A stretch of DNA of 64,000 bases from Escherichia coli (GTDB taxonomy: Bacteria; Pseudomonadota; Gammaproteobacteria; Enterobacterales; Enterobacteriaceae), in NCBI RefSeq assembly GCF_051903065.1, contig NZ_CP178438.1, one strand, 5' to 3'. The position numbers were made by a program. Positions 12,001-18,000 of this stretch are shown piece by piece; the stretch's first letter is position 1; each line of letters starts with the position of its first letter.

Positions 12001-15000
12001 TTATGATATTCGAGGAAGAAATCCAGCAGTTCGGCAACAATGGTTGAAACCGGGTTACCAATCGCGCGGAAACGCTCGGTGTCCTCAACGTGGATTTGCG
12101 CTTTGTGAGTAACATCCAGACCGGCCATCACCACCGGGATCCCTGACTGGAAGACAATTTCTGCCGCTTCCGGGTCAACGTAAATATTAAATTCAGCCGC
12201 AGGCGTCCAGTTACCAAGCCCCATTGCGCCGCCCATAATCACGATACGGGCAATTTTGCTATGCAGTTCCGGATGGCTATTGAGCAGCAAGGCAACGTTA
12301 GTTTGCGGTCCGGTAGAAACAATGGTGACAGGTTCCGCACTTTCACGCAGCGTTTTCGCCATTAGCTCTACCGCCGTACAGTTTTGCGGTGCGAACGCCG
12401 GTTCCGGTAATGCCGGGCCGTCGAGACCGCTTTCGCCGTGCACATTGTCCGCGATAATCAACTCACGCATTAACGGTTTTACCGCGCCGCCTGCTACCGG
12501 AATATCGGTGCGATTAAGCAAGGTCAGCATACGCAGAACATTGCGTAAGGTTTTTTCTGGTGTCTGGTTTCCGGCGGAAGACGTAATTGCTTTGACATCA
12601 AGCTCTGGTGAGGCGAGGGCGAGAACTATTGCGATAGCGTCGTCATGACCTGGGTCGCAATCTAACAGAATTGGCAGTGCCATTGTTGCTCCTTGTTGTG
12701 TGCTTCTTTGCGACAAGGGTAACGCCAGGATGTAACAGATACGAGGGGCGAAACGATAAAGCGTGAGATGGCGCGCAATTGGGTATGCGCGCCAGAGTGA
12801 TTAATGCAGGATTTTCGCGAGGAAGTCTTTTGCGCGGTCCGATTTCGGATCATCGAAGAACGCATCTTTCGGCGAGTCTTCAACAATTTTACCCTCATCC
12901 ATAAAGATCACCCGATTCGCCACTTTACGGGCAAAGCCCATTTCGTGGGTCACCACCATCATGGTCATCCCCTCGTTCGCCAGTTCCACCATCACGTCCA
13001 GTACTTCGTTGATCATCTCCGGGTCTAGTGCCGATGTGGGTTCGTCGAACAGCATCGCAATAGGATCCATACACAATGCGCGAGCAATTGCCACACGCTG
13101 CTGCTGGCCGCCGGAAAGCTGCGCCGGAAATTTATTGGCATGTGCGGAAAGTCCCACGCGCTCCAGCAATTTCAATGCTTTTTCACGAGCCGGCGCTTTA
13201 TCGCGTTTAAGCACTTTCACCTGCGCCAGGGTCAGGTTTTCGATAATCGACAGATGAGGGAACAGCTCGAAATGTTGGAATACCATCCCGACGCGAGAAC
13301 GCAGCTTTGCCAGATCGGTTTTCTTGTCGTTAACCACGATGCCATCGACGGTGATTTCACCTTGCTGCACCGGTTCGAGGCCGTTGACGGTTTTAATCAG
13401 CGTTGATTTGCCGGAACCAGACGGGCCGCAAACCACCACCACTTCGCCTTTTTTCACTTCGGTTGAGCAGTCGGTCAGCACCTGAAAGTGACCATACCAT
13501 TTTGAAACATTTTTCAGGGTAATCATTATGCTGTCCTTCTTTTCAAGTAGCTGACCAACAACGACGCGCTAAGGCTAATAACGAAATAAACAAATCCGGC
13601 AAACAGGATCATCTCAACCTGCGTACCATCACGCTCACCAATGGTTGAGGCGGTACGGAAGAAATCGGCCAGAGATAACACATACACCAGTGAGGTATCC
13701 TGGAACAGTACGATGCCCTGAGTGAGCAGCAGCGGCACCATCGCGCGGAACGCCTGCGGCAGAATAATCAGTTTCATCGACTGCCAGTGAGTCATTCCCA
13801 ACGCCAGCGCGGCGCTCGACTGACCACGAGAAATACTTTGAATACCAGCACGGATAATCTCTGAATAGTAGGCCGCTTCAAACATCGAAAACGCCACCAT
13901 CGCCGAAATTAAACGGATATCATTTTTTGGCGATAATCCCAGCACGTTTTGCAGAAAACCCGGCACAATCAGGTAAAACCACAGCAAAACCATAACTAAA
14001 GGAATCGAGCGGAATACGTTAACGTAGGCTTTGGCAAACCACGCTACGGGCGCAAAGCTGGACAAGCGCATCACCGCCAGCATGGTGCCCCACAAAATAC
14101 CAATCACGACTGCCGTGACGGTGATTTTCAGGGTGATCACCAGTCCATCCAGCAGATGCGGCAGGGAAGGGACAATAGAACTCCAGTCAAACTCGTACAT
14201 TATTTGCCCCCCATGTTGCCGGGCAGGCGAACTTTACGTTCAACCAGCGTCATCACCAGCATGATAAAAGCGTTAATCAATACATACGCCAGCGTAATGG
14301 CGGTAAACGACTCCCAGGCGTGAGCCGAGTAGTCGAGCAATTTACCCGCCTGCGCCGCCATATCCACCAGACCGATAGTCGAGGCGATGGCGGAGTTTTT
14401 CACCAGGTTCATCATCTCTGAGGTCATCGGCGGGACGATAACGCGATAAGCATTAGGCAGCAGTACGTAGCGGTAAGCCTGTGGTAGCGTCAGACCCATC
14501 GCCAGCGCGGCATTTTTTTGCCCGCGCGGCAGCGACTGAATGGCGGCGCGTACCTGTTCGCAAACACGGGCGGCGGTAAACAGCCCCAGGCAGAGCATGG
14601 ATGAAAGGAAAAACTGAATATTGGGATCCAGCTCGGCCTTAAACCACATGCCGATTTTCTCCGGCAGCAGCTCCGGGATCACCAGATACCAGGTAAAGAA
14701 TTGCACAATCAACGGCACGTTGCGGAACAGTTCGACATACAACGTACCCAGACCGGAGAGAAAACGGTTTGGAACGGTACGTAAAATGCCGAAAAATGAA
14801 CCGACGAGGAAAGCGATAATCCAGGCGCAGATCGACAAAGCGATCGTCACCTGAAAACCACTCCAGATCCAACCAAGATAGGTGGTGTTGCCGAACGGGG
14901 CTTGTTGTAAAAAAATACCCCAGTTCCAGTCTATAGACATAAATCTACTCCAGAAAAAAGAGGGTAGCAGCGTTAACTGCTACCCTCGAAGATTGTTACC

Positions 15001-18000
15001 CAGCGTATTGCGGTTTTCAGGCACGATGGGGAACGACCATCAGGCGTATAGTCTGTCCGTGCTACGTAACAATCGAGAGGGCTGGAATTTCCGCCCCTGG
15101 TTCTTGTAATTAGTTCAGTGCCTTGTCATTCGGTTCTTTGAACAGTGCTTTCATTTCGTCTGACAGTTCGAAATTCATGTTCAGGTTTTTCGGCGGAATG
15201 GGATTTTTGAACCATTTATCAAACCATTTTTCCGCTTCACCGGAGGTCTGCACCTGAGCGATAGTGTCATCCATCAGCTTTTTGAACTGCGGATCGTCTT
15301 TACGCAACATGCAACCGTAGGCTTCCTGAGACTGCGGCTTGCCGACGATATCCCAGTTGTCTGGTTTCTTCGCTTTCGCACGTTCACCGGCCAGCAGAGC
15401 ATCATCCATCATAAAGGCAACGGCACGACCGCTTTCCAGGGTGCGGAAAGAGTCACCGTGATCTTTGGCGCTGATAATTCGCATATTCATTTTTTGCTCT
15501 TCATTCAGTTTGTTGAGCAAAACTTCAGAGGTAGTGCCGGAAGTGACGACTACGGCTTTGCCTTTCAGGTCGGCAAAATCTTTGATATCGCCGCCCTTTT
15601 TGGTCAACAGGCGCGTACCGACCACGAAAATAGTGTCAGAGAAAGCCGCCTGTTTTTGGCGTTCGACGTTGTTGGTGGTAGAACCACATTCAAAATCGAA
15701 AGTGCCGTTTTGCAGAAGAGGAATACGGTTTTGTGAGGTGATCGGAATCAGTTTCACCTGCAAGTCCGGTTTGTTGAGTTTCTTTTTCACTGCTTCAACA
15801 ATGGCGTTGGAGTAATCCTGCGAATAACCCACCACTTTTTGCTGATTGTCGTAATAAGAGAAAGGTACTGAAGATTCACGGTGACCGACGACAATCACGC
15901 CGTTTTTGGCGATTTTGTCCAGCGTACTGCCCGCTGCCGGGGCGGCGTCATCTGCCTGTGCCAGTCCTGCGGAAAGCGCCAGGGCCAGGATTGCTGTGGC
16001 AGGTTTACGTAATTGCATATCCAACTCCTTTATCTTCTGCGTTAAGAACGCATGGATACCCGTTGTGAGTGTTTGTGTTGTTATCATCTGCAACTTTATT
16101 GTGCAGTGTTGTGCCTGTTAGGTAACATTTAGTTTGGCTAAATGTAAAGATATTGCTGTTTTATTGTTTATATTTGGGAGGTGCGCCGCACCATTCCGAA
16201 GCAAAATTCTTAAAATGCACTCTTTTGGTGCTACCGGTGGATTGCTGTGGTGCAACCGGGTTGTACTGATGCTGGTTCAAGCTTTGCCTTGTATAATAAA
16301 GCAATAGATGTGCCAAAGTTGGATAGGGGAATTTTGTTATCCGGATAATGCACTGATGCCGAATCCGGTGAGCGTGCCGAAATACGGGATGTATTCCGGC
16401 ACGATAAGAAGGGATTATTTACGTCGCTGACGCAGACTCATCAACACAGCAGCAAAACCAAACAGTGCCGTCAGCACCCACAGCGGCCAGTTGCCGGTAC
16501 GTGCGTATGGTGTGAGTCCGGTGGTCGGCGTCACGTTAGTGGTTAACACCTCGCGGGTGAACTGCGGGATCATCGCCTGAATCTCACCCTGCGGGCCAAT
16601 CACCGCCGTAATGCCGTTGTTGGTGCTGCGCAACAGTGGGCGCGCCAGCTCCAGCGCACGCATTCGCGCCATCTGGAAGTGCTGCCATGGACCAATAGAC
16701 TTACCAAACCACGCATCGTTGGAGATAGTCAGCAGATAGTCGGTATCCGGGCGGAAGTTATCGCGCACTTGCTCGCCGAGAATGATCTCGTAGCAAATAG
16801 CCGCAGTAAGCTCAATACCATTTGCCGACAGCGGCGGCTGGATATATGGCCCACGGCTGAACGACGACATCGGCAGATCAAAGAACGGTGCTAACGGACG
16901 CAGAATCGACTCCAGCGGGACAAACTCGCCAAACGGCACCAGATGGTTTTTGTTATAGCGATCGGCTGATTCGTAGCTGTACGGTGCACCTTTACCCAGC
17001 GTGATGATGGTGTTGTAGGTATCGTAGCGGTTCTGCTTATTGAGACGCGCGTCGACAATCCCGGTGACCAGCGAGCTACCTTTATCACGCAACTCACCGT
17101 CCAGAGCTTTGAGGAACGGTTGCTGATTAATTTCCAGATCGGTTATCGCCGACTCCGGCCAGATAATCAACGATGATTTGCCCATCAGCGGTGCCGTTGC
17201 GTTGTAGTAAATCTTCAGCGTATTAAGAAGCTGGCCTTCGTCCCATTTCAGCGATTGCGGAATATCGCCCTGAACCATCGAAACCTGAATGGTTTTCTCC
17301 GGTTGTGGGGTAAACCACTGGATGTAACGCAGCGGGAAGGGAAGGGCAAACAGCACGACGGCCACCACCAGCGGACGCCAGTTGCGTTTGACTAACGCCA
17401 GTGCCAGCAGGCCGCTAACCATCATAAGCAGGAAGTTAATGGCTTCCACGCCCATTAGCGGTGCCAGCCCTTTTAACGGGCCATCAATCTGGCTATAGCC
17501 GAACTGTAACCACGGGAAGCCAGTCAGCACCCAACCGCGCAGAAACTCGGTCACTTGCCAGAGAGCAGGAGCGGCAATCGCCACGCGCAGCCAGGTGGTT
17601 TTCGGCCACAGACGCGACAGCACGCCAGCAAACAGTCCGGTATACAGCGACAAATACGCCGCCAGCAGTACCACCAGGAAGATGTTAACCGGGCCAGGCA
17701 TTCCGCCAAAGGTCGCGATGCTGACATAGACCCAGTTAATACCGCTGCCAAAGAGACCAAATCCCCAGCAAAAGCCAATAGCGGCAGACTGGAGTGGACG
17801 GCGGTTAAAGGTCAACGCCTGAAGCCCCATCAGCGAAATAATCGCCGCAGACCAGACATCGTAAGGAGAGAAGGCCAGCGTTCCGCAGGCACCGAATAAT
17901 AACGCCAGCAGCAGGCGAATGCGCTGGCGTTCAATTAATGAGGCAAAAGCCATGTAGTTATCTATCCAGTTTCGGTTTTATTCATCCAGCTTTGGCTGGG

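What the first reader, a model, noticed from the sequence alone, without database searches (positions are those of the whole stretch)
14941..15109. Structured gltI-gltJ spacer consistent with the SroC sRNA
The 169-bp spacer inside the gltIJKL operon carries a strong GC hairpin plus T-tract in the operon orientation. SroC is known to be processed from this position and acts as a sponge sRNA.
Basis: partly seen in the sequence, partly recalled or inferred. Interest (0 to 1): 0.3.

Follow-up and report, generated by a model that had tools for sequence, protein, structure and literature searches.

The report
SroC sponge RNA, gltI-gltJ spacer
The structured spacer between gltI and gltJ is the already well-known E. 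coli small RNA SroC, which is cut from the glutamate/aspartate transporter mRNA and soaks up the regulator RNA GcvB; the only unusual point is a rare single-base variant in one of its stems.

Summary
The window is E. coli. The genes gltL, gltK, gltJ and gltI lie on the minus strand, and the gltI-gltJ spacer is exactly 14941-15109 (169 bp). Rfam's sroC model (RF00369) matches 15114->14952 on the minus strand over its full length, at 168.7 bits against a gathering score of 45. The same 163 nt are annotated as sroC (b4763) in K-12 MG1655, and 162 of 163 bases are identical. The 3' end is a 12-bp, GC-rich hairpin followed by UUUUUUCU, directly ahead of the gltJ ribosome-binding site. The two published GcvB-binding sites are present, 14 nt apart, and are perfectly complementary to K-12 GcvB nt 156-163 and 13-19. 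Both sites and the terminator are present in all 80 Enterobacteriaceae gltI loci examined, and the helices between them show compensatory changes. This is a textbook RNA derived from an mRNA 3' end that acts as a sponge, so it is already known and of low interest. Two small corrections: the RNA starts 5 nt inside gltI, and it ends 11 nt before the gltJ ATG. One small new point: SroC nt 92 is U here instead of G. Only 3 of 5305 complete E. coli genomes share this stretch. The change breaks a conserved SL2 pair, and its predicted effect is modest.

The parts
14952..15114 (-). SroC small RNA (163 nt), matching Rfam RF00369 and K-12 b4763
   Evidence: cmscan gives 168.7 bits, model positions 1-163 of 163. 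It is 162/163 identical to the K-12 ncRNA annotated at 686681-686843.
15110..15112 (-). gltI stop codon (UAA), which lies inside SroC at nt 3-5. The annotated 5' processing site is between 15115 and 15114. Salmonella numbering in PMC4474525 implies an end about 3 nt further upstream, near 15117.
   Evidence: Sequence. The +3 offset was inferred by matching the published positions G61/C63/G65/G84/C87 to the window sequence.
15078..15097 (-). SL1 hairpin (SroC nt 18-37)
   Evidence: Minimum-free-energy fold and the Rfam consensus structure. In the 58-sequence alignment the three counted pairs change on one side only.
15051..15058 (-). BS1, GGACAGAC (SroC nt 57-64), GcvB-binding site 1
   Evidence: An 8-nt perfect complement of K-12 GcvB nt 156-163. 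Present in all 80 gltI loci. It corresponds to the published G61/C63/G65 positions.
15021..15045 (-). SL2 hairpin (SroC nt 70-94: 9-bp stem, 7-nt loop)
   Evidence: K-12-allele fold and the Rfam consensus. 6 of its 9 pairs show compensatory changes.
15030..15036 (-). BS2, UCGUUCC (SroC nt 79-85), the SL2 loop and GcvB-binding site 2
   Evidence: A 7-nt perfect complement of K-12 GcvB nt 13-19. CGTTCC is present in 80/80 loci, 14 nt after BS1 in 79/80. It corresponds to the published G84/C87 positions.
15023..15023 (-). Rare allele: SroC nt 92 is U where K-12 and the five other Escherichia loci have G. It turns a C-G pair of the SL2 stem into a C-U mismatch.
   Evidence: The surrounding 60 nt are identical in only 3 of 5305 complete E. 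coli genomes. The window is the only C-U among 58 sequences at that pair. SL2 alone folds at -8.6 versus -15.2 kcal/mol.
14960..14987 (-). Rho-independent terminator hairpin (SroC nt 128-155)
   Evidence: 12-bp stem, 7 G-C pairs, 4-nt loop. The core GGGTAG...CTACCC is invariant in the 58-sequence alignment and is found by pattern match in all 80 loci.
14952..14959 (-). U-tract (UUUUUUCU) and the annotated SroC 3' end
14938..14950 (-). gltJ Shine-Dalgarno (GGAG, 14947-14950) and ATG (14938-14940), immediately after the U-tract and reached only by read-through transcripts
   Evidence: Sequence. The order terminator, T-run, GGAG-like SD, ATG holds in all 26 loci whose tails were printed, and the run of T's ends 11-15 nt before the ATG in the 68 loci measured.
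15110..16018 (-). gltI, the parental gene (periplasmic Glu/Asp-binding protein, 302 aa)
   Evidence: NCBIfam NF008063, 667.6 bits, profile positions 1-302 matched to ORF residues 26-327, so the true ATG is at 16018. RefSeq annotation.
16073..16082 (-). C/A-rich element in the gltI 5' UTR (AACAACACAA), the site where GcvB R1 represses the parental mRNA
   Evidence: A 10-nt perfect complement of K-12 GcvB nt 73-82. gltI is a known GcvB target (PMC4474525).
12801..14940 (-). gltJ, gltK and gltL (two permeases and the ATPase), downstream of the leaky terminator

Best explanation
This is the SroC small RNA of E. coli. Transcription of gltIJKL from the gltI promoter partly stops at a Rho-independent terminator in the gltI-gltJ spacer. 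RNase E then trims the resulting gltI transcript, with help from Hfq, to a stable RNA of about 163 nt that begins at the gltI stop codon. SroC pairs through two short sites with two distant parts of the GcvB small RNA: GGACAGAC in an internal bulge pairs with GcvB nt 156-163 (the SL4/R3 region of PMC9299463), and UCGUUCC in the SL2 loop pairs with GcvB nt 13-19 (the SL1 region). This pairing triggers RNase E degradation of GcvB. Loss of GcvB relieves repression of many amino-acid transport and metabolism mRNAs, including gltI itself, which carries a GcvB R1 site in its 5' UTR. Transcripts that read through the terminator carry gltJKL, whose ribosome-binding site starts right after the U-tract. 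The same hairpin therefore also sets the ratio of binding protein to membrane components. Shown here: identity, position, structure, both binding sites, the terminator, and their conservation. Taken from the literature: processing, Hfq dependence, GcvB decay and the physiological effect.
For: Rfam sroC hit, full length, 168.7 bits against a gathering score of 45. 162/163 identity to the annotated K-12 sroC b4763. The locus is present in 5421 of 5426 complete E. coli genomes. The flanking genes are gltI, gltJ, gltK and gltL. There is a strong terminator on the operon strand, and the fold has z = -4.61. SroC 57-64 and 79-85 are perfectly complementary to GcvB 156-163 and 13-19 and are 14 nt apart. 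This matches the two sites of 7-8 nt, 14 nt apart, and the protected GcvB residues G14, G18 and G156 reported in PMC4474525. Both sites occur in 80/80 Enterobacteriaceae loci, with a 14-nt gap in 79/80. Rfam sroC hits 20 of 20 sampled loci from other genera at the same position. For covariation, 15 of 29 pairs show changes on both sides and 95.7% of cells are paired, against 40-56% when partners are slid, with 0 of 500 shuffles reaching the observed score. The gltI 5' UTR has a 10-nt perfect match to GcvB R1. E. coli RIL-seq found about 70% of GcvB chimeras with SroC in stationary phase (PMC5145812; PMC9299463).
Against: No expression or processing data exist for this strain. Complementarity to GcvB alone is statistically weak: 6 complementary 7-mers against 1.9 expected (P about 0.04), and two 8-mers (P about 0.11). 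Two further 7-8-nt matches fall inside hairpin stems and are probably coincidental. The window carries a rare U92 allele that weakens SL2 by about 6.6 kcal/mol, so its activity could differ somewhat from K-12. gcvB is not in the window, so K-12 GcvB was used as the partner.
Confidence: 0.96

Rival explanations
1. The spacer is only an intra-operon attenuator that sets the GltI:GltJKL ratio, and the released RNA is an inert by-product with no function in trans.
For: The arrangement of terminator, U-tract, gltJ Shine-Dalgarno and ATG is conserved across the 80 loci. ABC-transporter operons commonly over-produce the binding protein (discussed in PMC4474525).
Against: This does not explain why GGACAGAC and CGUUCC, 70-100 nt upstream of the terminator, are present in all 80 loci at a fixed 14-nt spacing while the stems around them vary freely with compensation. 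Published point mutations in these sites stabilise GcvB. The attenuator role is real but is additional, not an alternative.
Confidence: 0.02
2. The SroC allele in this window (U92) is a partly disabled sponge. The broken SL2 pair lets the RNA refold so that the two GcvB-binding sites pair with each other, which would raise GcvB levels in this lineage.
For: The allele is in only 3 of 5305 genomes. It is the only C-U among 58 sequences at a pair that otherwise covaries (CG 31, UA 18, UG 6). The whole-RNA minimum free energy is -59.9 versus -66.3 kcal/mol. The predicted unpaired probability of BS2 is 0.38 versus 1.00, and of BS1 0.29 versus 0.59.
Against: The canonical fold remains almost as stable as the alternative (-59.7 versus -59.9 kcal/mol). 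The extra cost of exposing both sites is only about 1.1 kcal/mol (2.54 versus 1.45). Both binding sites are intact, and Hfq remodelling is not modelled. This is an energy-model prediction only.
Confidence: 0.12
3. The region encodes a small protein on the opposite (plus) strand, the 75-aa ORF at 14882-15109.
For: An ORF with a GTG start exists.
Against: It has no Pfam match. An antisense open stretch of at least 70 aa exists in only 27 of 80 homologous loci. The spacer alignment is full of indels that are not multiples of three.
Confidence: 0.01

Closest known systems
SroC (Rfam RF00369; E. coli K-12 b4763; Salmonella SroC of Miyakoshi, Chao and Vogel 2015, PMC4474525)
   Same: Same locus (the gltI 3' end and the gltI-gltJ spacer), same strand and same 163-nt extent. 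162/163 bases match K-12. It has the same SL1, SL2 and terminator architecture, and the same two GcvB-binding sites 14 nt apart.
   Different: One base: G92U in the 3' arm of SL2, a rare E. coli allele. Compared with Salmonella and most other genera, Escherichia has about 9 extra nt in the terminator, which lengthen its stem from 6-7 bp to 12 bp.
Other RNase E-processed small RNAs derived from mRNA 3' ends (CpxQ, SdhX, NarS, OppZ, MalH; reviewed in PMC9438474)
   Same: They share the terminator of a parental mRNA and are released by RNase E as Hfq-associated regulators.
   Different: SroC comes from a terminator inside an operon rather than at its end. Its main target is another small RNA (a sponge action) rather than an mRNA.
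The chbBC spacer, a decoy for the ChiX small RNA
   Same: An operon-internal spacer RNA that inactivates a small RNA by base-pairing.
   Different: Per PMC4474525, ChiX decay involves its 3' terminator and PNPase, whereas GcvB is cleaved by RNase E. The sequences are unrelated.

Membership tests
SroC (RF00369) | Scores above the curated gathering threshold of the Rfam covariance model over its full length | tested here: met
   168.7 bits against 45, model positions 1-163 of 163, E = 2.2e-35, minus strand.
SroC (RF00369) | Lies between gltI and gltJ on the operon strand, starting at the gltI stop codon | tested here: met
   gltI, gltJ, gltK and gltL were identified by NCBIfam and RefSeq annotation. 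The RNA starts 2 nt before the UAA.
SroC (RF00369) | 3' end formed by a Rho-independent terminator in the spacer | tested here: met
   A 12-bp hairpin (7 G-C pairs) followed by UUUUUUCU. The hairpin core is found in all 80 loci. Actual termination was not measured.
SroC (RF00369) | Two GcvB-binding sites (BS1 and BS2) of 7-8 nt, 14 nt apart, complementary to GcvB | tested here: met
   SroC 57-64 pairs with GcvB 156-163 and SroC 79-85 with GcvB 13-19, both perfect, with a 14-nt gap. Conserved in 80/80 loci. K-12 GcvB was used because gcvB is outside the window.
SroC (RF00369) | Conserved secondary structure (long-range stem, SL2) supported by covariation | tested here: met
   15 of 29 pairs have changes on both sides; 95.7% of cells are paired against 40-56% when slid; 0 of 500 shuffles reach the observed score. 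In the window itself one SL2 pair is broken by U92.
SroC (RF00369) | Accumulates as a discrete, stable, 5'-monophosphate RNA of about 160 nt made by RNase E with Hfq | not testable with these tools
   Shown for Salmonella and E. coli K-12 in the literature (PMC4474525, PMC9438474). No data exist for this strain.
SroC (RF00369) | Destabilises GcvB and de-represses GcvB targets | not testable with these tools
   From the literature only.
SroC as a sponge of MgrR and a repressor of fliE/flhBAE | A base-pairing site for MgrR | tested here: inconclusive
   The only complement to K-12 MgrR of 7 nt or more lies in the MgrR terminator stem, and duplex predictions are unconvincing. The interaction is reported in the literature.

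The most novel reading that the evidence does not exclude
The window carries a rare natural SroC allele, U92, shared with only 3 of 5305 complete E. coli genomes. It breaks a covarying base pair of SL2 and is predicted to let the two GcvB-binding sites pair with each other. If that lowers sponge activity, this lineage would have more GcvB and tighter repression of amino-acid uptake. It would be a naturally occurring tuning mutation of a sponge RNA.
Probability: 0.12. Interest if true: 0.3.

Novelty: already known. Interest (0 to 1): 0.08.

Why it matters
It matters little as a discovery. SroC has been known since 2003, its sponge mechanism since 2015, and it is annotated in the reference genome and in Rfam. 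The comparative survey shows a modular layout. The GcvB-binding core (two sites, 14 nt apart) and the unit of terminator plus gltJ RBS are conserved. The connecting stems covary and tolerate insertions, some of which match ERIC primers. The rare U92 allele offers a cheap natural test of how much SL2 stability contributes to sponge activity.

Tried and rejected
(1) RNA.duplexfold of full-length SroC against GcvB gave a meaningless all-against-all duplex, because it ignores intramolecular structure. I used exact complementarity instead.

(2) A shuffle test of complementarity alone gave weak significance (P 0.04 and 0.11). The pairing claim therefore rests on conservation and published probing and mutagenesis, not on complementarity statistics.

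(3) The search for a MgrR pairing site found nothing convincing.

(4) The antisense 75-aa ORF was rejected: no Pfam match and not conserved.

(5) The Rfam consensus pairs UCUCG (SroC 37-41) with CGAGG (SroC 126-130). This helix shares two G's with the terminator stem and could in principle act as an anti-terminator. The one variable position (U, C or A at alignment column 59) changes with no compensating change in the near-invariant CGAGG. There is therefore no covariation support for the helix, and I left it as speculation.

(6) My first heuristic for the gltJ start mis-called several spacers. I replaced it with tblastn anchoring.
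Full report
**Observation.** The window is E. coli: 14700-15400 matches 5421 of 5426 complete E. 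coli genomes at 95% identity or more. On the minus strand lie gltL (12801-13526), gltK (13526-14200), gltJ (14200-14940) and gltI (15110-16018), with lnt upstream at 16415-17953. The ORF list extends gltI to a TTG at 16093, but the NCBIfam profile starts at ORF residue 26.

The hairpin is on the operon strand. Its stem runs 14987->14960 with 12 pairs (7 G-C) and a 4-nt loop, followed by TTTTTTCT, and it is clearly the best terminator-like site in 12500-16600. The 174-nt RNA folds at -63 kcal/mol against -43.5 +/- 4.2 for shuffles (z = -4.61, 0 of 200 shuffles as good).

**Identity.** Rfam's sroC model (RF00369) matches 15114->14952 on the minus strand over model positions 1-163 of 163, at 168.7 bits (gathering score 45, E = 2.2e-35). 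RefSeq K-12 MG1655 annotates the homologous 163 nt (686681-686843, minus strand) as 'small regulatory RNA SroC', b4763, overlapping the last 5 nt of gltI. The window is identical to K-12 over 196 aligned bases except for one position.

It ends at the U-tract, 11 nt before the gltJ ATG. The intervening GGAG (14947-14950) is the gltJ Shine-Dalgarno sequence.

**Mechanism, tested here.** Miyakoshi et al. (PMC4474525) showed the following in Salmonella:
- SroC is released from the gltI transcript by RNase E, requiring a 5'-monophosphate and Hfq.
- Its 3' end comes from a leaky Rho-independent terminator in the gltI-gltJ spacer.
- It pairs with GcvB through two sites of 7-8 nt (BS1 and BS2) that are 14 nt apart in SroC and far apart in GcvB. 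GcvB residues G14, G18 and G156 are protected; SroC residues G61, G65 and G84 are protected; C63G and C87G abolish the effect.
- Pairing triggers RNase E decay of GcvB.

I fetched K-12 gcvB and searched for exact complementarity. SroC 57-64 (GGACAGAC) complements GcvB 156-163, and SroC 79-85 (UCGUUCC) complements GcvB 13-19, with exactly 14 nt between the two SroC sites. The published Salmonella positions map onto these with a constant +3 offset: G61/C63/G65 correspond to G58/C60/G62, and G84/C87 to G81/C84. This implies that the Salmonella 5' end is numbered about 3 nt further upstream. That offset is my inference.

Complementarity alone is weak evidence. There are six complementary 7-mers against 1.9 expected (P about 0.04) and two 8-mers (P about 0.11). 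Two other 7-8-nt matches fall inside stems. The case rests on conservation together with the published experiments.

The parental mRNA's own GcvB site is also in the window: AACAACACAA at 16073-16082 in the gltI 5' UTR is a 10-nt perfect complement of GcvB R1 nt 73-82. Both arms of the published feedback loop are therefore present. For E. coli, RIL-seq found about 70% of GcvB chimeras with SroC in stationary phase (PMC5145812; PMC9299463).

**Comparative evidence.** A scan with GltI returned 80 gltI loci from Escherichia, Salmonella, Citrobacter, Enterobacter, Klebsiella, Kluyvera, Buttiauxella, Cedecea, Atlantibacter and others.
- Rfam sroC hits all 20 sampled loci, downstream of gltI and within the spacer, at 47.7-181.2 bits.
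- In a 58-sequence alignment of the spacers of ordinary length, GGACAGACTA, CGTTCCCC, TCTTC and the terminator arms are invariant.
- The RNAalifold structure has 31 pairs, 15 of them with compensatory changes.
- Counting on 29 of those pairs gives 95.7% of cells paired, against 40-56% with partners slid by 1-3 columns. The covariation score is 0.345 against 0.06-0.11, and 0 of 500 shuffles reach the observed score. The covariation is concentrated in the long-range stem (9 of 11 pairs) and SL2 (6 of 9 pairs). The terminator core never varies.
- Across all 80 loci, both binding sites are present, and the gap is 14 nt in 79.
- All 80 have the GGGTAG...CTACCC hairpin. In every tail printed it is followed by a T-run, a GGAG-like SD and the ATG.
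- 23 loci have longer spacers of 191-339 nt. The extra DNA sits either between the gltI stop and the SroC body or between SL2 and the terminator, never inside the BS1-BS2 core. Several of the inserts match the ERIC primer sequences with 1-4 mismatches. The primer sequences were recalled from memory, so this is a lead rather than a test.

**The one unusual point.** SroC nt 92 (window 15023) is U, where K-12 and the five other Escherichia loci have G. The 60 nt around it are identical in only 3 of 5305 complete E. coli genomes: ECNB21-M121, 23CRST027 and 23CRST031. The base is the partner of C72 in the SL2 stem. That pair otherwise covaries (CG 31, UA 18, UG 6), and the window is the only C-U.

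ViennaRNA predicts SL2 alone at -8.6 versus -15.2 kcal/mol and the whole RNA at -59.9 versus -66.3 kcal/mol. In the minimum-free-energy fold of the U92 allele, an alternative hairpin pairs the BS1 and BS2 regions with each other. However, the canonical fold is nearly as stable (-59.7 kcal/mol). The cost of exposing both sites rises only from 1.45 to 2.54 kcal/mol. I rate a real functional effect as possible but unlikely to be large.

**Rivals.**
- Reading the spacer as only an attenuator does not explain the invariant binding core. The attenuator role coexists with the sponge role.
- The antisense 75-aa ORF has no Pfam match and is not conserved.
- A convincing MgrR site could not be found by simple complementarity, so that published second sponge target is neither supported nor contradicted here.

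**Verdict.** The element is already known: Vogel 2003 and Miyakoshi 2015 (as cited in PMC9438474 and PMC4474525), Rfam RF00369, and K-12 b4763. Interest is low.

Noticed in passing
window 15023 (SroC nt 92): A rare G-to-U allele in the 3' arm of SL2. The surrounding 60 nt are shared by only 3 of 5305 complete E. coli genomes (ECNB21-M121, 23CRST027, 23CRST031). It breaks a covarying C-G pair. Predicted SL2 stability falls from -15.2 to -8.6 kcal/mol, while the cost of exposing the GcvB sites rises by only about 1.1 kcal/mol.
   Followed up: yes
window 14960-14987, compared with L008-L082: Escherichia carries about 9 extra nt (CAGTTAACG) in the SroC terminator, which lengthen the stem from 6-7 bp in most genera to 12 bp. 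Five loci (three Kluyvera, plus L029 and L072) have a different insertion at the same spot that also extends the stem. This may shift the balance between SroC release and gltJKL read-through.
   Followed up: partly
L014, L022, L042, L063, L073 (insert between the gltI stop and the SroC body); L034, L037, L045, L046, L066, L080 and others (insert between SL2 and the terminator): 23 of 80 gltI-gltJ spacers are 191-339 nt long. The insertions avoid the BS1-BS2 core and the terminator-RBS unit. Several match the ERIC1R/ERIC2 primer sequences (recalled from memory) with 1-4 mismatches.
   Followed up: partly
window 16019-16414, compared with K-12 687748-689342 (L001): K-12 MG1655 has IS5D (insH3) inserted about 100 bp upstream of the gltI ATG, between gltI and lnt. 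The window's 396-bp gltI-lnt spacer leaves no room for the 1195-bp element, so here the gltI promoter region is uninterrupted.
   Followed up: partly
window 60056-60098 (+): A perfect full-length match to Rfam RF02751, ES036 (CssrF) sRNA, at 75.1 bits against a gathering score of 37.6.
   Followed up: no
window 23502-24205 (-): A cluster of seven tRNA genes. In order of increasing window coordinate, all on the minus strand, they are Gln(CTG) x2, Met(CAT), Gln(TTG) x2, Leu(TAG), Met(CAT). From my own knowledge, this looks like the E. coli metT-leuW-glnUW-metU-glnVX operon.
   Followed up: partly
E. coli genome collection: Two of the 5431 matches to the gltI-sroC-gltJ segment are on records labelled as plasmids, and some genomes hold two copies.
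   Followed up: no
window 15073-15078 and 14984-14989 (SroC nt 37-41 and 126-130): The Rfam consensus pairs UCUCG with CGAGG, overlapping the first two G's of the terminator stem, so it is a conceivable anti-terminator. The single variable position shows no compensatory change, so the helix is unsupported. PMC4474525 also notes unexplained conserved nucleotides here.
   Followed up: partly
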